Part shown: piece after piece, positions 2-6,172 of the stretch
Layout: every line of letters starts with the position of its first letter
Position numbering within the stretch: position 1 is the stretch's first letter
Origin: Nitrosomonas europaea
GTDB lineage: Bacteria; Pseudomonadota; Gammaproteobacteria; Burkholderiales; Nitrosomonadaceae
NCBI RefSeq assembly: GCF_900167395.1
Contig: NZ_FUWK01000059.1
Span: 1-10,212 of the forward strand
Direction: 5' to 3'
Length of the DNA stretch: 10,212 nt
The notes under the pieces: model-generated
Databases searched by the model: none
What the model was told of the DNA's origin: nothing
Seen by the model: only the letters and a program-made list of their open reading frames with translations
Position numbers and translations under genes: made by a program

Positions 2-406
2 TCGATTGTCATTACAGATGCTAACTATGACGTACCGGGACGTGCACTGCGTGTCACCATGGAAGTAACCAATAATGGCGACATACCTGTCACATTTGGT
101 GAGTTCACCACGGCAGGCATACGTTTCATCAACTCTACTGGCCGTAAATACTTGGATCCTCAGTATCCTCGTGAACTGATCGCTGTCGGTTTGAATTTCG
201 ACGATGAAAGCGCAATTCAACCTGGTCAGACCAAGGAACTGAAAATGGAAGCCAAAGATGCATTGTGGGAAATCCAACGTCTGATGGCGTTGCTGGGTGA
301 CCCGGAAAGCCGTTTTGGTGGATTATTGATGTCTTGGGATGCAGAAGGTAATCGCCATATCAACAGTATTGCTGGTCCGGTGATTCCTGTCTTCACCAAA
401 CTCTGA
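2..406 (+). CDS. amoB: Ammonia monooxygenase subunit B, C-terminal part (5' end lies outside the window)
   Basis: The frame is open from the window edge (codons phased from nt 2) to TGA 404-406. The translation [43 protein letters not shown]...[32 protein letters not shown] is colinear with the C-terminal cupredoxin domain of PmoB/AmoB. From memory, M. capsulatus PmoB reads YRVPGRAMRM..ITNHG..GEFYTA..RFL...DPDSRFAGLLFFFDATGNR..APLIPSF. The AMO assignment, rather than pMMO, rests on the downstream amoE-amoD-copCD synteny. Confidence 0.93.
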
Positions 407-487: not shown

Positions 488-569
488 ACACAGTCTTGGT
501 TTTGAACGAAGCATCAATTAGCCTGTCGAATTTAGTATTGCGGATACTGAATTGAAAGGGATTGTAAAA

Positions 570-1205
570 ATGAGAAGAGAGAGTTTGCTGAAAAAGCATG
601 AAGGTGTTGTAAAAAGTACTGGGGGGGGTGTCGTGTTGAAGCAATCCCTGTACTCGATTGTTACAGCATTTGTTTTCGTAATTCTGTGTTCCGCAAGTAC
701 AGTCTGGGGACATGGTCGTGTATCTCTGGAAGAAGATAACTGTGTGCGTCAGGTAGGCGAGAATATGGTGCACTTAAATACCTATCAGCCTCAATATGAT
801 CAGGCGGGGCATTATTGTACAGAGATTCCGGCGGCGGGAGATACTTACCTGGTGGTAGATCTGATTGATCCAGCCTTACGCAACATGCCAGTGAGCATGA
901 AAGTATTCAGGGGTGAAGAAAAGGGAGGGGAAGCGATTCTTCAGGTAAAAGCCGATTATCACCCTGATGGTGTCATCAATGGAATAGGTAAACTGGACAA
1001 GGGGTTATATTCGGTAATGGTGACCGCAGAAGGTGTTCCCCCACTGAATTATTATTACCAGCTTCGGGTTGAAATGGTTGATTATGGCAAGCTGGTACGT
1101 ACCTGGGCAGGTCCGGCAGTCGCAATACTGTTTTTGGGCTGGTTGATGTATAAACTGGTGCAATCTGGTCGATTGAGAAGCTGGTTCAAATCTCAGGATG
1201 ATTAA
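570..1205 (+). CDS. amoE: AmoE (orf4), a membrane-anchored periplasmic AmoD/PmoD-family putative copper protein
   Basis: The ORF ends at TAA 1203-1205. ATG 570 is preceded by AAGGG (555-559). The TTG 552 start used by the ORF track is less likely. In-frame GTG 633 or TTG 636, just after a G8 run (621-628), would give a more canonical signal peptide (KQSLYSIVTAFVFVILCSASTVWG|HG). There is a C-terminal TM helix (WAGPAVAILFLGWLMYKLV). The mature N-terminus is 25/59 identical, ungapped, to the next ORF. Being the first ORF after amoB, and a paralog of the second, fits orf4/amoE of betaproteobacterial ammonia oxidisers. Confidence 0.85.
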   Translation: MRRESLLKKHEGVVKSTGGGVVLKQSLYSIVTAFVFVILCSASTVWGHGRVSLEEDNCVRQVGENMVHLNTYQPQYDQAGHYCTEIPAAGDTYLVVDLIDPALRNMPVSMKVFRGEEKGGEAILQVKADYHPDGVINGIGKLDKGLYSVMVTAEGVPPLNYYYQLRVEMVDYGKLVRTWAGPAVAILFLGWLMYKLVQSGRLRSWFKSQDD

Positions 1206-1271
1206 ACTGGATCATCCTGCGTTAGCGATGTGATTCACAACAAGAAAATCAAGGAGAGGGAGGATGGTTAA

Positions 1272-1844
1272 ATGGTAAAAGGGTGGACAATGACAAGTAT
1301 CAAGTGGCTTGGAGGGGTACTGCTGGGAATGGTCTGTTCAATCCAGGTGCAAGCACATGGTGGGTTATCATTGGCGGAAGATATGTGTAAGCTGACCATT
1401 GGTCCTTATACCATGCACTTTACGGGTTATCAGCCTGAAAGCACACAGGAAAAAGAATTCTGTGAAGACATACCGAATATTGGCCGGACAATTGTAGCGC
1501 TGGACTACATAGATGAGGCGTTACGTACGATGACGACAGAAGTGCGGATTATTCGTGATACAGGAGCTGAACCGGGTTCAGAAGGAAATCTTGATGAGCT
1601 TACTGTTTTTCATTCACCACCAAAGGTATATATGAATGGATCGGTAACTTTTGAACACGATTTTCCTGCGGAAGGGAAGTTCGTGGGACTGGTGACGATC
1701 AGAGACAATGGTACCGAGCATATTTCCCGTTTTCCATTTGCTGTAGGCACTGGAGGTAAGCCTGATATGCTGTATATCCTCGGAGCATTAGCCCTTGCAG
1801 CAGGTGCCGGCATCTTCTTCTTCAAAAAGAAACAAAACCCTTGA
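1272..1844 (+). CDS. amoD: AmoD (orf5), a membrane-anchored periplasmic AmoD/PmoD-family putative copper protein
   Basis: ATG 1272 lies 7 nt after a strong SD (AAGGAGAGGGAGGA, 1251-1264). ATG 1290 (MTSIKWLGG..) is an alternative start. The signal peptide is ..MVCSIQVQA|HGG, and the C-terminal TM helix MLYILGALALAAGAGIFFF is followed by KKK. It shares this motif string with AmoE: HG-x2-SL-x-ED-x-C, H-x3-YQP, C-x-[ED]-IP-x2-G, D-x-ID-x-ALR-x-M. Confidence 0.87.
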   Translation: MVKGWTMTSIKWLGGVLLGMVCSIQVQAHGGLSLAEDMCKLTIGPYTMHFTGYQPESTQEKEFCEDIPNIGRTIVALDYIDEALRTMTTEVRIIRDTGAEPGSEGNLDELTVFHSPPKVYMNGSVTFEHDFPAEGKFVGLVTIRDNGTEHISRFPFAVGTGGKPDMLYILGALALAAGAGIFFFKKKQNP

Positions 1845-1937
1845 GGATAAAGCATCTCACACAATATTGCATAACACTATTTAAGTAAGTATCAATGTTC
1901 TTGTATATTTATTTTTAAATATTAGAAGGGTAATAAG

Positions 1938-2360
1938 ATGAAAAGAGAAAGTTTTGTTGAGTTGTTCATAGAAAAAATTGTAACAAAGGTGAAGATAAGC
2001 AGTTTTGTAATGGGATTAATTTCTTTAGTTTTATTGTCAAGTTCAAATGTAGTGTTTGCACATGCTGCTCTAACAAAAGCTGAGCCAGCACGTCGAGCAG
2101 TTCTTACTGCTTCCCCAAAACAAGTTAGGTTATGGTTTAACGAAGAAATTGAAGCCGACTATGCATCTTTGTCACTGCATGATGCAAATGGTAAGGCACT
2201 CACTGAAAAAAAACCTTTAGTTCATCCTGATGATGCTAAATCGATTTACCTTGAATTGCCCGAGCTGATTGGTGGTCAATATACGGTCAAGTTTCGTGTT
2301 TTGTCTGTAGACGGCCATGTAGTAGATTCAGAATATAAATTTACAGTTAAAAATAAGTAA
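1938..2360 (+). CDS. copC: CopC-family periplasmic copper-binding protein with the Cu(II) site only
   Basis: ATG 1938 lies 7 nt after AGAAGGG (1924-1930). The signal peptide ends ..SSSNVVFA|HAALTKAEP, so the mature protein starts with His (codon 2061-2063). A D-G-H motif sits near the C-terminus (2310-2318, ..RVLSVDGHVVD). The overall pattern H-x2-L..P....L.F......S.L.L.D..G......YTV.(F/W)RV.S.DGH is typical of CopC. The mature sequence contains no methionine, so the Met-rich Cu(I) site of classical CopC is absent. Confidence 0.9.
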   Translation: MKRESFVELFIEKIVTKVKISSFVMGLISLVLLSSSNVVFAHAALTKAEPARRAVLTASPKQVRLWFNEEIEADYASLSLHDANGKALTEKKPLVHPDDAKSIYLELPELIGGQYTVKFRVLSVDGHVVDSEYKFTVKNK

Positions 2361-2378
2361 CAAAATAAAAAATAAGTA

Positions 2379-4526
2379 ATGGAAATCGTTGCGATATTAG
2401 CTAGATGGTCACAGCTTGTTGCCAATCTAGTATTACTTGGAAGTTGTCTTTATCTAGCCATAGCAGGTACCAGGCGAGAGTTATTCGATAATGCGTGGGT
2501 CATACGTTTGGAGAAATTATTCCCTGTATTGACTGCTATAGTTTTAGTTGGGCTTATTGGAGTTCTGGCTACGACTACAGGTAAAGCAACCGGAATTGAG
2601 TCCAATACTTGGAAGCTTGATGCATGGATTGAGATTGTCAGGCATACCAATATGGGACATATGTGGGCATTACGTGCTATTTCTGCCCTATTTTTGATGG
2701 CTGTTTCAGTATTCATATACGTGAAACGTGAACGGGCCAGATGGCATTACGTTATGGGAGCTTGCATAGCATCCTTGCCCTTGGTAGCTTCGGCGATGGT
2801 GAGCCATGCGGGTGCAGATGAAAATTTCATGGTGTATGTGCCTATTTATGCAATTCATATCCTGATGGCCGGAGCATGGTTTGGTGCACTTCCGGCATTT
2901 CTATTAATCGTTTTCGATCGACACAATTGTGATGCTAAAGGCATACAGCTCGTATTGAACGTAGACAGCCTGAAAAGATTTTCGGTCATTGCGCTGCCCA
3001 TCATGGTTGCAATAGTACTAACTGGCCTGATTCTAACGGATCGGATGGTGGAAGAAGATTATCATGCATTGGTAGCTAGTACTTATGGTTGGGCTCTGGT
3101 TACGAAAATCGCTTTGTTGATAGCAATATTGTTTATAGCGTACCAGGCGCGTTCAAAGTGGTTGCCGTCATTTGAGCGTGTATGTGATTCTATAGACCGT
3201 TCCAGTCTGGATAAAGAAGAGAAAATTAATCAATCTTTCTTCTCTAAGTGGGTGCATAAAACTACTCAGGTTGAGAACTACGGTTGTGCGGAGGAAGGTG
3301 CCCCAGATTCTGGAGTAGCTAGATTGCGTAAATGGGTTCGAGTTGAATTTGTATTGGCGTTGCTTCTTGTACTATTTGCAACAATACTTTCCAACTCAGT
3401 GCCCGCCAAGCATGCAATGGTGGAAAATTGGCCATATCCATTCCGTTTTACTATTGATGGATCGATAGGTGCAGGAGCATGGAATGATCCAACAGTTCAA
3501 TTCTTCTTGGGGTTAGGAGTAGTTTTACTTGTTGCCGCATTTGGTCTATTTTGGTTGGGTAAAAAGAAGGATTGGAATTTTAGAAAACGTGCTTTGGTTA
3601 CAAGCGTATTAGTAGTTAGTGGTATCGCTGCGATTTTGCCACAATTTGCAGTTGTTGCTTATCCTGAGACGTATCGTAATACACCTGTTCCATTTGATGC
3701 TATTTCAATTTCGAATGGTTCGGTGCATTTTTCAGAATTTTGCACCAGTTGTCATGGTCCTCAAGGGAAAGGTAACGGTATATTAGCTAAAACTTTGTCA
3801 ATGCCACCTGCAGATTTGCTGACAGAACCGCATACCGCGAGACATACTGCCGGTGATTTTTTTCACTGGTTAGGGTATGGTATTGAAAATACAGGGATGC
3901 CTGGCTTTATAAATAGTTTGTCTGAAGAGGATCGATGGGATACGGTCAACTACATTCATGCAATGTCACGTGGCTACCAGGCGAGACTACTGGGTCCTGC
4001 AGTTATACCGGATAAACCTTCTATGGGTCCACCGGTTTTTCAGTTCACTGCTTATGATGGCACTACTGGCACACTCAAAGATTTTCGACAAACAGCAAAT
4101 GTATTGTTGGTATTTTTTAGCTGGCCAAATTCATTGGATAGATTAAAGGAGTTAAGCGAAAGCTATGAGAAGCTGAGAAGCCTAAAGACAGTTGTACTCG
4201 CCGTTCCTTTGGATGGGTATAGCGAGGCAGCGGTAGCTGGCTTTGCTGCTGATACCCCACTTGAAGTAGTAAGAGATGGATGGTTTGAAGTAAAAAACAG
4301 CTATATCCTTTACAGGCGTACTCTCAAATATCCCGATATCTTGGGTTCAGGTAATATTCCCGATCATATGGAGTTTTTAGTCGATCGTTTTGGATATTTG
4401 CGTGCCCGCTGGATACCATCCTTGGATCAGTCTGGCTGGAGTGATTTAAACTTGCTTACCAGTCAACTTTTGCAACTTAATCAGGAAAAGGAGATATTGC
4501 CACCACCGCGAGATCATGTACATTAA
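2379..4526 (+). CDS. copD: CopD-family inner-membrane copper transport protein fused to a class I c-type cytochrome domain and a C-terminal thioredoxin-fold domain without cysteines
   Basis: A single uninterrupted 715-codon ORF starts 18 nt after copC. Residues 1-440 contain about 10 hydrophobic helices with a CopD-like N-terminus (ILARWSQLVANLVLLGS..). A heme c motif C455-T-S-C-H459 lies at nt 3741-3755, with a GMPGF distal-Met motif (M507, nt 3897-3899) and LSEEDRWDTVNYI, as in class I cytochromes c. Residues about 551-715 follow the AhpC/TlpA/Sco-like beta-alpha-beta pattern (TLKDFRQTANVLLVFFSWPNSLDRLKEL...TVVLAVPLDG...MEFLVDRFGYLRARW). The redox motif position reads SWPNS (nt 4119-4133) and has no cysteine. 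No clear SD precedes ATG 2379, so translational coupling to copC is possible. Confidence 0.88.
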   Translation: MEIVAILARWSQLVANLVLLGSCLYLAIAGTRRELFDNAWVIRLEKLFPVLTAIVLVGLIGVLATTTGKATGIESNTWKLDAWIEIVRHTNMGHMWALRAISALFLMAVSVFIYVKRERARWHYVMGACIASLPLVASAMVSHAGADENFMVYVPIYAIHILMAGAWFGALPAFLLIVFDRHNCDAKGIQLVLNVDSLKRFSVIALPIMVAIVLTGLILTDRMVEEDYHALVASTYGWALVTKIALLIAILFIAYQARSKWLPSFERVCDSIDRSSLDKEEKINQSFFSKWVHKTTQVENYGCAEEGAPDSGVARLRKWVRVEFVLALLLVLFATILSNSVPAKHAMVENWPYPFRFTIDGSIGAGAWNDPTVQFFLGLGVVLLVAAFGLFWLGKKKDWNFRKRALVTSVLVVSGIAAILPQFAVVAYPETYRNTPVPFDAISISNGSVHFSEFCTSCHGPQGKGNGILAKTLSMPPADLLTEPHTARHTAGDFFHWLGYGIENTGMPGFINSLSEEDRWDTVNYIHAMSRGYQARLLGPAVIPDKPSMGPPVFQFTAYDGTTGTLKDFRQTANVLLVFFSWPNSLDRLKELSESYEKLRSLKTVVLAVPLDGYSEAAVAGFAADTPLEVVRDGWFEVKNSYILYRRTLKYPDILGSGNIPDHMEFLVDRFGYLRARWIPSLDQSGWSDLNLLTSQLLQLNQEKEILPPPRDHVH

Positions 4527-4641
4527 TTCTGTCCAAAGAAACTGAGAAGACAGCCTAAAGTAATCGTTAAGAGTAAGAAGTTTTATAATAAATTTATGAA
4601 GCTTGTTAAGTAGTTTTTAACCAGTGATAGGGAGAACAGTA

Positions 4642-5199
4642 ATGAAAAAATATCTGACGGGTGTGGTTCTTTTTGGATTGCTAACTTTATTTACAGGGTC
4701 GACTTGGGCACATTCAGATGAACAATTGGATGGGGTGGCTGCTCCACATGGCGGACAATTAAGAATGGCAGGTCCGTATCATTTGGAACTGGTTGCCAAG
4801 GATGGTGAATTACGTTTATATGTAACGGATCACATGGATCATGAGGTTCTTACTAAAGGTGGATCAGGTAAGGCAAATGTTTTTGATAAAGATGGGAAAA
4901 AGGTATCGGTAACATTGATACCGGTTTTTGCAAATTTCATGAAAGGGACGGGAGAGTTTACAATTACACCGGAAACCGTAGTTTCCGTATTTGTAGTATT
5001 GGATGGGGCAGAGACACAAGCTGCTCGTTTTACTCCGTTGAAGAAAGCTTCTGCTAAGGCTGAAGATGAAGAAGAGCACCACCATGGAGATGCTGATCAA
5101 GGTGAGCACCATCATCACGGAGATGTTGAACACGAACAACAACCTACTGATCAAAGTGATGCCGCAGAAAGTGAAGAAAATGAAGAGCATCATCACTAG
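4642..5199 (+). CDS. Secreted protein of unknown family with an acidic, histidine-rich C-terminal tail (putative periplasmic metal-binding protein)
   Basis: ATG 4642 lies 6 nt after AGGGAGA (4629-4635). The GTG 4624 start used by the ORF track is less likely. The signal peptide is MKKYLTGVVLFGLLTLFTGSTWA|HSDEQ. The core looks beta-rich (APHGGQLRMAGPYHLELVAKDGELRLYVTDH..). The tail at nt 5062-5196 reads EDEEEHHHGDADQGEHHHHGDVEHEQQPTDQSDAAESEENEEHHH and ends in HHH at the C-terminus. A terminator follows the gene. I cannot name the family from memory. Confidence 0.78.
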   Translation: MKKYLTGVVLFGLLTLFTGSTWAHSDEQLDGVAAPHGGQLRMAGPYHLELVAKDGELRLYVTDHMDHEVLTKGGSGKANVFDKDGKKVSVTLIPVFANFMKGTGEFTITPETVVSVFVVLDGAETQAARFTPLKKASAKAEDEEEHHHGDADQGEHHHHGDVEHEQQPTDQSDAAESEENEEHHH

Positions 5200-5623: not shown

Positions 5624-6172
5624 ATGAAATACTGGTTGTATACGAGTCTATTTCTTGCCCTGATATTTTCGTTTCGGAGTTACGCAAATTCAGACATATG
5701 GATTCTGATAGATACTCTGGAGCAACGACTTAGTGTTATGCGTGGAGACAAGGCGCAATTGGCTTTTAATAATATTGCGATTGGCCGATACGGTGCTAGT
5801 AGCTCGAGAATGAAAGGCGATAACCAGACTCCGCTCGGCTCATTTCAAATTAGCTGGATTAAGCAGCATCATCGCTACTATCGGTTTTTTGGAGTTGATT
5901 TTCCCAATCAGGAAGCGGCAGATCTGGCTTTGGCTGAAAAAAGAATTTCACGACAAGCCTGGTTGAGTATAACCAAAGCCATTGAATCTTCAAGGTTGCC
6001 TCCCCAAGATACGCCGCTTGGGGGCTATATAGGGATTCATGGTATTGGTCGAGGAGATCGTACAGTTCATGCACGTTTCAACTGGACTAATGGATGTGTA
6101 GCTCTGACAAATGCGCAAATTGATGAATTAAGTTCATGGATAAAAATAGGCACGAAAGTTGTAATACGATGA
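5624..6172 (+). CDS. L,D-transpeptidase family protein (YkuD/ErfK domain), secreted
   Basis: The signal peptide is MKYWLYTSLFLALIFSFRSYA|NSD. The catalytic-site pattern matches the YkuD fold: ..GGYIGIHGIG.....NWTNGCVALTNAQIDEL (His...Gly-Cys-[VI]-x-[LM]-x-N). No obvious SD precedes ATG 5624, so the start is less certain than the gene call. Confidence 0.85.
   Translation: MKYWLYTSLFLALIFSFRSYANSDIWILIDTLEQRLSVMRGDKAQLAFNNIAIGRYGASSSRMKGDNQTPLGSFQISWIKQHHRYYRFFGVDFPNQEAADLALAEKRISRQAWLSITKAIESSRLPPQDTPLGGYIGIHGIGRGDRTVHARFNWTNGCVALTNAQIDELSSWIKIGTKVVIR

What the first reader, a model, noticed from the sequence alone, without database searches (positions are those of the whole stretch)
711..4713. 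Four consecutive secreted proteins all predicted to mature with an N-terminal histidine
Applying the -3/-1 signal peptidase rule by eye gives these cleavage sites:
- AmoE: VWG|HG, His codon 711-713
- AmoD: VQA|HGG, His codon 1356-1358
- CopC: VFA|HAA, His codon 2061-2063
- His-rich protein: TWA|HSD, His codon 4711-4713

An amino-terminal His, which binds through both the amine and the imidazole, is the established Cu(II) ligand in CopC. It is also the histidine brace of PmoB and the LPMOs. Four such proteins in a row directly downstream of amoB is unlikely by chance. It suggests a relay of N-terminal-His copper sites in the periplasm, possibly passing Cu between the proteins and on to AMO.
Basis: partly seen in the sequence, partly recalled or inferred. 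Interest (0 to 1): 0.65.

Follow-up and report, generated by a model that had tools for sequence, protein, structure and literature searches.

The report
Amo-cluster copper proteins starting with histidine
Every exported accessory protein encoded after the ammonia monooxygenase genes of this nitrifier is predicted to start, once its signal peptide is removed, with a conserved histidine, a known copper-gripping arrangement that has never been tested in three of the four.

Summary
CAT codons sit at 711, 1356, 2061 and 4711, each just after a signal-peptidase-type site in amoE, amoD, copC and an unnamed His-rich ORF. The His is near-invariant in orthologs: AmoE 58/59, AmoD 83/84, CopC 51/52, His-rich 27/27. 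In 50%-identity representatives of the whole PmoD/AmoD family it is 118/132, more conserved than the published CuA ligands.

CopC His1 aligns to residue 1 of solved CopC structures. AmoB, just upstream, also matures at A|HGER, and solved AMO chains start there. Background His at +1 is about 2.6%, so chance is excluded.

- **Known:** the CopC and AmoB N-terminal His sites.
- **Untested:** AmoD and AmoE. Published PmoD constructs carried an extra Ser-Met, and the crystallised PmoD has Glu at this position.
- **Undescribed:** the His-rich protein. It has no Pfam or NCBIfam match, a predicted beta-sandwich core and a disordered His/acid tail. It is linked to copper monooxygenase clusters in two lineages.

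Caveats:
- copD, a membrane protein, lies between copC and the His-rich gene.
- AmoD and AmoE are paralogs.
- The AmoE cleavage site here (VWG|H) is the least certain.
- The proposed copper relay is plausible, with a YcnI/YcnJ precedent, but unproven.

The parts
2..406 (+). 3' end of amoB (Monooxygenase_B). The N-terminus is outside the window.
   Evidence: Pfam PF04744, E=1.2e-43. Full-length orthologs in related loci all read xxA|HGE[RK]. Solved AMO chains 9CL6_A and 9PXF_A begin at that His.
570..1205 (+). amoE / orf4. PmoD-family protein: signal peptide, cupredoxin-like periplasmic domain, C-terminal transmembrane helix. The start is uncertain (ATG 570, or GTG 633 / TTG 636 just after a run of 8 G at 621-628).
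   Evidence: PDB PmoD 6CPD, E=9.5e-9. Ortholog alignment. Start codon list. G run.
711..713 (+). AmoE predicted mature residue 1, His (VWG|HGRVS).
   Evidence: CAT verified. His in 58/59 orthologs, with A or G at -1. In this window the site ranks second in a crude cleavage score.
741..818 (+). AmoE Cys11-x7-Met19-x-His21 ... Cys36 in mature numbering. This is the Cx7MxHxnC motif that forms a CuA-like site in PmoD.
   Evidence: Residue positions. Motif definition in PMC6189053.
1272..1844 (+). amoD / orf5. PmoD-family protein: signal peptide, cupredoxin-like domain, C-terminal transmembrane helix.
   Evidence: PDB PmoD 6CPD, E=1.4e-23. AF2 model mean pLDDT 85.7, with best fold match 6CPD at TM 0.86. 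A GGAGG sequence precedes ATG 1272.
1356..1358 (+). AmoD predicted mature residue 1, His (VQA|HGGLS).
   Evidence: CAT verified. Top-ranked cleavage site. His in 120/120 close homologs, 83/84 locus orthologs and 118/132 family representatives.
1386..1463 (+). AmoD Cys11-x8-Met20-His21 ... Cys36 in mature numbering. This is the Cx8MH motif class, not the CuA class.
   Evidence: Residue positions. Motif classes in PMC6189053.
1938..2360 (+). copC, periplasmic Cu(II)-binding protein.
   Evidence: Pfam PF04234, E=2.1e-22. PDB 5ICU, E=7.2e-18.
2061..2063 (+). CopC mature residue 1, His (VFA|HAALT), the N-terminal Cu(II) ligand.
   Evidence: Aligns to residue 1 of solved CopC chains 5ICU, 6TPB, 7BK5-7 and 9C14. 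His in 51/52 orthologs.
2310..2318 (+). CopC Asp84-Gly-His86 in mature numbering, the partners of His1 in the Cu(II) site. The mature protein has no Met, so there is no Met-rich Cu(I) site.
   Evidence: Residue positions. Aligned to 'sDgH' of 5ICU.
2379..4526 (+). copD fusion: CopD membrane domain, a cytochrome c domain (CTSCH at residue 455) and a weak thioredoxin-like C-terminal region. Polytopic membrane protein with no cleaved signal peptide expected.
   Evidence: Pfam PF05425 (E=5.8e-15), PF00034 (E=4e-11) and a weak PF00578 match. CxxCH position.
4642..5199 (+). Unnamed His-rich exported protein: signal peptide, predicted beta-sandwich core and a disordered His/acid-rich tail.
   Evidence: No Pfam or NCBIfam match. 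343 homologs, all unnamed or 'hypothetical'. Follows copD in 21 of 32 beta-AOB loci.
4711..4713 (+). His-rich protein predicted mature residue 1, His (TWA|HSDEQ).
   Evidence: CAT verified. Top-ranked cleavage site. His in 27/27 locus orthologs, in at least 90% of a 71-sequence alignment, and in a divergent gamma clade.
4741..5046 (+). His-rich protein beta-sandwich core (mature residues 11-112), carrying invariant His13, His24 and Glu26 and nearly invariant Asp40 and His41.
   Evidence: AF2 pLDDT above 90 over this stretch, with 8 strands. Conservation. Weak fold matches to H. pylori CrdA 9LL2/9LL4 and to CopC 5ICU.
5047..5196 (+). His-rich protein C-terminal tail (mature residues 113-162): 11 His and 18 Asp/Glu, predicted disordered.
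   Evidence: Composition. pLDDT below 50.
5624..6172 (+). YkuD-type L,D-transpeptidase. It is the next exported protein and serves as a negative control (predicted SYA|NSD, Asn at +1). It is not part of the feature.
   Evidence: Pfam PF03734, E=6.3e-23. Cleavage heuristic.

Best explanation
The window is the tail of a Nitrosomonas-type amoCAB-amoE-amoD-copC-copD cluster, followed by an unnamed His-rich gene.

Each exported product (AmoE, AmoD, CopC, His-rich protein) is cut by signal peptidase I immediately before a conserved His. The same holds for AmoB, whose 5' end lies outside the window. Each mature protein therefore begins with His.

A free alpha-amine plus the His imidazole forms a bidentate Cu(II) chelate, the core of the histidine brace. 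This is shown for CopC-family proteins and for the CuB site of PmoB/AmoB.

The most likely reading is that AmoE, AmoD and the His-rich protein also carry N-terminal Cu(II) sites. Candidate partner residues are Asp9 and His21 in AmoD and AmoE, and Asp3, His13, His24 and His41 in the His-rich protein. On this reading the cluster encodes a set of membrane-proximal periplasmic Cu(II)-binding sites. These would capture scarce copper and hand it to CopD for import and/or to AMO during assembly.

Shown here: the gene identities, the His codons, their conservation and the CopC and AmoB precedents.

Inferred: actual cleavage in AmoE, AmoD and the His-rich protein, copper binding by their His1, and any transfer between the proteins.
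For: - Coordinates and context are verified.
- Family assignments: PF04744, PF04234 and PF05425. PmoD 6CPD matches AmoD at 1.4e-23 and AmoE at 9.5e-9.
- CopC His aligns to residue 1 of solved CopC chains, with Asp84 and His86 present.
- AmoB orthologs read A|HGER, and solved AMO chains start there.
- His+1 is conserved in four sequence-unrelated families. hhalign finds no relation between the His-rich protein and either CopC or AmoD.
- In PmoD-family representatives, H1 (118/132) and Gly2 (126/132) are more conserved than the CuA ligands His (97/132) and Met (81/132). H1 is kept in 26 of 35 members that lack that His.
- Proteomics in PMC6189053 detected PmoD soluble domains and C-terminal helices but not signal peptides.
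- All published PmoD constructs carried an extra N-terminal Ser-Met, and the crystallised PmoD has Glu at the H1 column. An N-terminal site has therefore never been testable.
- YcnI has the same architecture (signal peptide, cupredoxin fold, C-terminal helix) and binds Cu(II) at its N-terminal His (PMC8424229).
- Cu(II) exchange between two such sites has been demonstrated (PMC12362106).
- The His-rich gene is tied to copper monooxygenase clusters in two lineages. In one it overlaps the amoD-like gene.
Against: - No signal peptide predictor or N-terminal proteomics was available. For this window's AmoE the crude score prefers CSA|S, which would put the His at +6.
- AF2 gives pLDDT below 50 for AmoD residues 1-5 and about 59 for the first 10 residues of the His-rich protein, so no pre-organised site is visible. 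Model coordinates could not be inspected.
- The operon-type PmoD of alpha-methanotrophs, which is needed for copper-dependent growth and forms the CuA site, lacks H1. H1 is therefore not universally required in the family.
- The His-rich gene is absent from this position in 11 of 32 beta-AOB loci.
- N-terminal His sites in other families prefer Ni (DUF4198), so the metal is not fixed by the motif.
Confidence: 0.55

Rival explanations
1. The sites are independent and there is no relay. Each protein uses its N-terminal His for its own job. CopC feeds CopD. AmoD and AmoE are redox or assembly partners of AMO, and His1 only tunes or completes a Cys/His/Met copper centre. The His-rich protein is a copper buffer or store. 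The shared His1 reflects convergent use of a good Cu(II) chelate, not a pathway.
For: - AmoE carries the full Cx7MxHxnC CuA-type motif and AmoD the Cx8MH motif.
- PmoD forms a CuA-like site without H1.
- The His-rich gene is dispensable in 11 of 32 loci.
- The histidine brace review notes that such proteins simply cluster with copper transport genes (PMC10952591).
Against: - Tight, conserved co-location and co-orientation of all the genes with amoCAB.
- Translational overlap of the His-rich gene with the amoD-like gene in a second lineage.
- Demonstrated Cu(II) exchange between analogous sites.
Confidence: 0.25
2. In AmoE, AmoD and/or the His-rich protein the conserved His is not the mature N-terminus. 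The leader is not cleaved, or is cleaved elsewhere. The His is then an ordinary internal ligand or a structural residue next to the membrane.
For: - The crude score prefers CSA|S for this AmoE.
- IMG predicts two transmembrane helices and no signal peptide for the long annotation of N. europaea AmoE, NE0942.
- AmoE has Gly rather than Ala at -1 in this window and in several orthologs.
Against: - The only conserved small-x-small motif lies directly before the His, while the rest of the c-region drifts.
- In 117 of 118 family representatives with H1, the -1 residue is A, G or S.
- Shorter AmoE annotations are predicted to have a signal peptide.
- Signal peptides were not detected in PmoD proteomics.
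- Fisher et al. designed constructs that start at this His (primers).
Confidence: 0.1
3. The His-rich protein is not a copper protein. It would be a Ni, Zn or general divalent-metal binder or chaperone that happens to lie after copD.
For: - His/acid-rich tails are typical of Zn and Ni proteins. Weak sequence hits go to the His-rich loop of ZnuA.
- N-terminal His proteins such as DUF4198 prefer Ni.
- There is no homology to CopC or AmoD.
Against: - It is found next to copCD or amoD-like genes in two copper monooxygenase lineages.
- Its best fold matches, though weak, are the copper proteins CrdA and CopC.
Confidence: 0.1

Closest known systems
CopC family (PF04234), Cu(II)-only type, e.g. Methylosinus trichosporium OB3b CopC (PDB 5ICU)
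   Same: The window CopC is a member. It has a Pfam hit above threshold. His1 aligns to residue 1 of 5ICU, Asp84-x-His86 are present, and a copD gene follows.
   Different: None for CopC itself. It has no Met, so it lacks the Cu(I) site of the Pseudomonas and E. coli CopC/PcoC type. Its CopD partner is fused to a cytochrome c domain.
PmoD/AmoD family (PmoD from Methylocystis sp. Rockwell, PDB 6CPD; Fisher et al. 2018, PMC6189053)
   Same: AmoD and AmoE are members. They have a signal peptide, a cupredoxin-like domain with two invariant Cys, and a C-terminal helix. AmoE has the CuA-type Cx7MxHxnC motif.
   Different: The characterised PmoD has Glu, not His, at the first mature position and was studied without its native N-terminus. 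The N-terminal His-Gly conserved in about 89% of the family was tabulated there as 'H1' but never discussed or tested as a ligand. AmoD has Cx8MH, a class reported not to form CuA.
YcnI / DUF1775 mono-histidine brace protein of Bacillus subtilis (PMC8424229) and its Cu(II) exchange with the CopC domain of YcnJ (PMC12362106)
   Same: YcnI has the same architecture as AmoD and AmoE: signal peptide, cupredoxin-type domain, C-terminal membrane helix and a conserved His at the cleavage site. It is encoded next to a CopC-CopD protein. Cu(II) passes between the two N-terminal-His sites.
   Different: AmoD and AmoE give no hit to any copper-domain Pfam model, DUF1775 included, in a full Pfam-A scan at E<=0.1. 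Copper binding at His1 is shown for YcnI and only inferred here.
Histidine brace of PmoB/AmoB (CuB site) and of LPMOs
   Same: An N-terminal His is exposed by signal peptide cleavage. AmoB, AmoE and AmoD all start His-Gly, as many AA10 LPMOs do (the LPMO point is from my own knowledge). AA10 LPMOs recur among weak fold neighbours of the AmoD model.
   Different: The fold matches to LPMOs are below significance (TM 0.33-0.38). No second His has been placed in a T-shaped geometry. Nothing suggests catalysis.
Helicobacter pylori CrdA (PDB 9LL2/9LL4), a CopC-like periplasmic copper resistance protein
   Same: Best structural neighbour of the His-rich protein's predicted beta-sandwich core (TM normalised by target 0.58-0.65).
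   Different: E-values are only about 1e-3 and identity is 8-11%. There is no sequence or profile similarity to CopC. The N-terminal His, the four conserved His and the long His/acid tail define a separate, undescribed family.

Membership tests
CopC (PF04234) | CopC domain detected above the curated threshold | tested here: met
   PF04234, 80.4 bits against a cut-off of 23.3. It falls below the NCBIfam equivalog cut-off (79.7 against 95), so it is a family member rather than a strict equivalog of the Pseudomonas CopC.
CopC (PF04234) | Cu(II) site made of the N-terminal His plus Asp and His near the C-terminus | tested here: met
   His at 2061-2063 aligns to residue 1 of 5ICU, 6TPB and 9C14. 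Asp84-Gly-His86 aligns to the 'sDgH' of 5ICU.
CopC (PF04234) | The mature N-terminus really is that His (signal peptide cleaved there) | not testable with these tools
   Top-ranked site in a crude score and conserved in 51/52 orthologs. No SignalP or proteomics was available.
PmoD/AmoD family | [quoted passage not shown] | tested here: met
   AmoD and AmoE both have Cys11 and Cys36 (mature numbering) and a C-terminal hydrophobic helix. 6CPD matches at E=1.4e-23 and 9.5e-9. The AmoD model matches 6CPD at TM 0.86.
PmoD/AmoD family, CuA-forming subgroup | Cx7MxHxnC motif | tested here: met
   Met for AmoE (Cys11, Met19, His21, Cys36). Not met for AmoD, which has Cx8MH (Cys11, Met20, His21). N. 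europaea orthologs are classified the same way in Supplementary Data 2 of PMC6189053.
Histidine brace (LPMO / PmoB CuB / CopC type) | N-terminal His supplying both the amine and an imidazole N to Cu | not testable with these tools
   The predicted N-terminal His is conserved in all four proteins.
Histidine brace (LPMO / PmoB CuB / CopC type) | A second His completing a T-shaped N3 site | tested here: inconclusive
   Candidates exist: His21 in AmoD and AmoE, and His13, His24 and His41 in the His-rich protein. AF2 leaves the N-terminal residues at low confidence.
ATCUN motif (NH2-X-X-His) | His at mature position 3 | tested here: not met
   Mature sequences start HGR, HGG, HAA and HSD. Position 3 is R, G, A and D.
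YcnI / DUF1775 | Sequence match to the DUF1775 model | tested here: not met
   A Pfam-A scan of AmoE and AmoD at E<=0.1 returned only SurA_N_3 and Gram_pos_anchor noise. The shared architecture is a resemblance only.
LPXTG cell-wall anchored proteins (the database label of many AmoD records) | LPXTG sortase motif in a Gram-positive host | tested here: not met
   TIGR01167 matches only the transmembrane helix plus basic tail (residues 160-189, E=1.7e-4). The tail reads ...GTGGKPDMLYIL..., with no LPXTG, and the host is a proteobacterium.
CusF-like copper/silver binding proteins (considered for the His-rich protein) | Significant sequence or fold match to CusF | tested here: not met
   phmmer E of about 0.9 to 2VB2, 2QCP and 1ZEQ. 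CusF is not among the top 50 fold matches.

The most novel reading that the evidence does not exclude
The physiological copper site of most PmoD/AmoD/AmoE proteins is an N-terminal His-Gly Cu(II) site of the histidine-brace kind, possibly completed by Asp9 and His21. It would have been missed because every recombinant construct blocked or lacked the native N-terminus. Together with CopC, AmoB and a previously undescribed His-rich beta-sandwich protein, these would form a cluster-encoded chain of His1 sites. The chain would capture Cu(II) at the membrane surface and deliver it to the CuB site of AMO or to CopD. This would make the long-unknown role of orf4 and orf5 directly testable and would define a new accessory protein of copper membrane monooxygenases.
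Probability: 0.25. Interest if true: 0.8.

Novelty: new member of a known kind. Interest (0 to 1): 0.55.

Why it matters
How ammonia and methane monooxygenases acquire their copper is an open question, and so is the function of the conserved orf4/orf5 (AmoE/AmoD, PmoD) proteins. These enzymes also matter for nitrification control and greenhouse gas budgets.

The analysis gives a concrete and inexpensive experiment. Remake AmoD, AmoE and the His-rich protein with authentic His1 N-termini and compare them with H1A and N-terminally extended forms. The only biochemical study of the family could not have seen such a site.

The analysis also flags an unnamed protein family, tied to copper monooxygenase clusters in two lineages, as a candidate new accessory factor.

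The underlying chemistry is well known. The CopC and AmoB cases are textbook. The gain is therefore new members and a testable hypothesis, not a new principle.

Tried and rejected
- **Family search for the His-rich protein.** Pfam and NCBIfam scans found nothing, even at E<=10. PDB sequence hits were only low-complexity His-rich loops and CusF at E of about 0.9.
- **Remote homology.** hhalign of the His-rich family against the CopC and AmoD profiles gave probability 0.2%. The families are treated as independent.
- **ATCUN motif.** Rejected, because His is at position 1, not 3.
- **Structure-based test of a pre-formed site.** This failed. Both AF2 models leave the N-terminal residues at low confidence, and the tools return no coordinates.
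- **LPMO-like fold for AmoD.** AA10 LPMOs recur among the fold hits, but at TM 0.33-0.38. That is generic beta-sandwich similarity and is not used as evidence.
- **LPXTG anchor hit of AmoD.** Spurious.
- **Transcription signals.** The scan found no convincing terminators or promoters between the genes. Counts were at or below shuffle expectation, so nothing could be said about operon boundaries.
- **Literature.**
  - No held paper contains both 'histidine brace' and PmoD.
  - There were no hits for the presumed N. europaea locus tags of copD or the His-rich gene.
  - The Lawton 2016 CopC paper and the Fisher 2019 PmoF paper are not held.
- **Divergent His-rich homolog.** A homology search seeded with it found only 9 relatives.
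- **Home-made cleavage score.** It is crude and is used only as a sanity check.
- **Internal background estimate.** It rests on only 22 ORFs.


Full report
**What the window is.**

The ORFs and domain scans give this gene order, all on the + strand:
- the 3' end of amoB (2-406, PF04744)
- amoE/orf4 (570-1205)
- amoD/orf5 (1272-1844)
- copC (1938-2360, PF04234)
- a 715-residue copD fused to a cytochrome c domain (2379-4526)
- an unnamed His-rich ORF (4642-5199)
- a YkuD L,D-transpeptidase (5624-6172)
- rpsL, rpsG and fusA

AmoD and AmoE match the only solved family member, PmoD 6CPD, at E=1.4e-23 and 9.5e-9. The closest public relatives are Nitrosomonas sequences.

**Checking the observation.**

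The codons at 711, 1356, 2061 and 4711 are all CAT.

Each protein has a basic n-region and a hydrophobic core. A crude -3/-1 score of my own puts the site before His first for AmoD, CopC and the His-rich protein. For this AmoE it is second, behind CSA|S. No dedicated predictor was available, so I relied on conservation instead.

I took 80 genome loci that encode an AmoD relative and labelled their ORFs with the window's proteins. The column aligned to the predicted +1 His is His in:
- 58/59 AmoE
- 83/84 AmoD
- 51/52 CopC
- 27/27 His-rich orthologs

The residues before the His drift freely, except for small residues at -1 and -3.

A whole-library profile search returned 150 representatives at 50% identity. 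Of the 132 with a complete N-terminus:
- 118 have His at this column
- 126 have Gly next to it
- 117 of the 118 have A, G or S at -1
- 112 of the 118 have exactly 10 residues from the His to the first invariant Cys

This His is more conserved than the published CuA ligands, His (97/132) and Met (81/132). It is kept in 26 of the 35 members that lack that His.

Published background for His at +1 is 2.6% (PMC12537917). Three unrelated families in one cluster are therefore far beyond chance. A small internal control gave 1 His in 22. The next exported protein, YkuD, is predicted to start with Asn.

**Corrections to the observation.**

- The four are not strictly consecutive genes. CopD, a polytopic membrane protein, lies between copC and the His-rich gene.
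- AmoD and AmoE are paralogs and count once.
- The AmoE start codon is doubtful. ATG 570 gives a 47-residue leader. GTG 633 or TTG 636, just after a run of eight G (621-628), gives a normal 25-27 residue signal peptide, and orthologs often have Met there. This matches the supplementary table of Fisher et al., where short AmoE annotations are predicted to have a signal peptide and the long N. europaea one is not.
AmoB orthologs all read xxA|HGE[RK], and solved AMO chains 9CL6_A and 9PXF_A begin at that His.

**What is known and what is not.**

*CopC.* The window protein aligns from its His to residue 1 of the solved CopC chains 5ICU, 6TPB, 7BK5-7 and 9C14. It keeps the Asp-x-His partners (mature Asp84 and His86) and has no Met at all. 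It is therefore a Cu(II)-only CopC with the classical N-terminal site. This part of the finding is already known chemistry (PMC10952591).

*AmoD and AmoE.* Fisher et al. 2018 (PMC6189053) described the family as a signal peptide, a periplasmic cupredoxin-like domain with two invariant Cys and a C-terminal helix. They showed a CuA-like site formed by Cys41, Met49 and His51 of a PmoD dimer. Three points from that paper matter here:
- All constructs carried an extra vector-derived Ser-Met at the N-terminus. A site using the free amine of His1 could not form.
- The crystallised PmoD belongs to the alpha-methanotroph operon subgroup, which has Glu rather than His at this column (...APLRA|EGGAG...). 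The model starts only at residue 37/38.
- Their Supplementary Data 2 contains an 'H1' column that records exactly this His. The text as searched with the terms, and the legend of their Supplementary Figure 7, give no discussion of it as a ligand. Homologs whose constructs began Ser-Met-His-Gly bound copper without CuA features.

No held paper contains both 'histidine brace' and PmoD. A 2026 AMO review and the 2020 modelling paper do not mention an N-terminal His in AmoD or AmoE.

*The His-rich protein.*
- It has no Pfam or NCBIfam match. Its 343 homologs carry no name beyond 'hypothetical'.
- AF2 with a 71-sequence alignment predicts an eight-strand beta-sandwich for mature residues 11-112 (pLDDT above 90) and a disordered tail with 11 His and 18 acidic residues.
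- His13, His24 and Glu26 are invariant. His1, Asp3, Asp40 and His41 are at least 90% conserved.
- The best fold matches are the H. pylori copper protein CrdA and CopC itself, but only at E of about 1e-3 to 2e-2. Profile comparison with CopC and AmoD shows nothing.

*Genomic linkage of the His-rich gene.*
- It follows copD in 21 of 32 beta-AOB loci with enough downstream sequence, including all such Nitrosomonas loci. It is absent from that position in 11 Nitrosospira/Nitrosovibrio loci.
- A divergent clade occurs in gammaproteobacterial metagenome contigs. There it overlaps the end of an amoD-like gene directly after amoCAB, with copCD nearby. It keeps A|H(D/T)(D/E), His24 and His41.

**Mechanism.**

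The best-supported account is that all exported products of the cluster are cut before a conserved His and expose an N-terminal Cu(II)-chelating unit.
- Shown: the genes, the codons, the conservation, the CopC and AmoB precedents, and the absence of signal peptides from PmoD proteomics.
- Inferred: cleavage at these sites in AmoE, AmoD and the His-rich protein, copper binding by their His1, and handover of copper.

Candidate partner ligands are Asp9 and His21 in AmoD and AmoE, by analogy with His/Asp/His in CopC and His/Glu in YcnI. In the His-rich protein they are Asp3, His13, His24 and His41.

The closest working analogy is B. subtilis YcnI. It has the same signal peptide, cupredoxin and C-terminal helix layout, binds Cu(II) at its N-terminal His, and exchanges Cu(II) with the N-terminal-His CopC domain of the CopD-type importer YcnJ. 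The YcnI authors had to use a SUMO fusion to obtain the authentic His1. This underlines why the PmoD work could not have detected such a site.

**Evidence against, and limits.**

- AF2 leaves AmoD residues 1-5 below pLDDT 50 and the first ten residues of the His-rich protein near 59. I could not inspect coordinates.
- The alpha-methanotroph PmoD works without H1.
- The His-rich gene is not universal.
- N-terminal His sites can prefer Ni.
- The AA10 LPMO hits among fold neighbours of the AmoD model have TM 0.33-0.38 and are not evidence.
- The relay to AMO is a hypothesis, not a result.

**Verdict.**

The chemistry is a known kind. The new content has three parts:
- the near-invariant and untested N-terminal His-Gly of the AmoD/AmoE/PmoD family
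- an undescribed His1-bearing family linked to copper monooxygenase clusters
- the fact that the pattern covers every exported product of the cluster, including AmoB

Noticed in passing
window 552-640: The amoE start codon is ambiguous. ATG 570 (or TTG 552) gives a 47-residue leader. In-frame GTG 633 / TTG 636 directly follow a run of eight G (621-628) and would give a standard 25-27 residue signal peptide. Orthologs often have Met at that position. The long annotation probably explains why some databases predict no signal peptide for AmoE.
   Followed up: partly
window 2379-4526: CopD is a 715-residue fusion: a CopD membrane domain, a c-type cytochrome domain (CTSCH at residue 455) and a weak AhpC/TSA-thioredoxin-like C-terminal region. 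A haem domain on the importer suggests that Cu(II) taken from CopC is reduced to Cu(I) before transport. The same CopD plus cytochrome c architecture appears in the divergent locus L081.
   Followed up: partly
window 1749-1841 (AmoD C-terminus): The transmembrane helix plus basic tail of AmoD matches the LPXTG_anchor model TIGR01167 (E=1.7e-4), although there is no LPXTG motif. Many public AmoD records are consequently named 'LPXTG cell wall anchor domain-containing protein'. For a Gram-negative nitrifier this is a misannotation.
   Followed up: yes
L001 (whole locus, 4250 bases): A contig 100% identical to the window's amoD-copC-copD-His-rich stretch is filed under an 'Actinomycetota bacterium' MAG (KLAP143). 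Several other amo-type contigs are filed under Klebsiella pneumoniae, Flavobacteriales or Rhodanobacter MAGs. These look like binning errors.
   Followed up: no
L082 4421-5411; L081 1254-2247; L060 and L078: A divergent gammaproteobacterial copper monooxygenase cluster (amoC-amoA-amoB, a 182-residue amoD-like gene, then a His-rich homolog) has the His-rich gene overlapping the end of the amoD-like gene by 17 bases. copC and copD lie divergently next to it. This suggests translational coupling of the two proteins.
   Followed up: partly
L061-L080 (e.g. L073, L074 Bradyrhizobium; L072 Nevskia; L080 Rhodoferax; L065 Methylibium): AmoD-like genes with the same A|HGG start follow AmoB-like genes in genomes not known as nitrifiers or methanotrophs. 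These are presumably hydrocarbon-oxidising copper monooxygenase clusters. The His-Gly N-terminus therefore travels with the enzyme family as a whole.
   Followed up: no
window 741-818 versus 1386-1463: The two paralogs differ in motif class. AmoE has Cx7MxH, the class shown to form a CuA-like site in PmoD. AmoD has Cx8MH, a class reported to bind copper without CuA features. The duplicated genes are unlikely to be redundant.
   Followed up: partly
L022, L024, L027, L029, L031, L039, L046, L050, L052, L054, L056: In 11 Nitrosospira/Nitrosovibrio loci the His-rich gene is missing after copD, despite about 4 kb of downstream sequence. I did not check whether it lies elsewhere in those genomes.
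   Followed up: no
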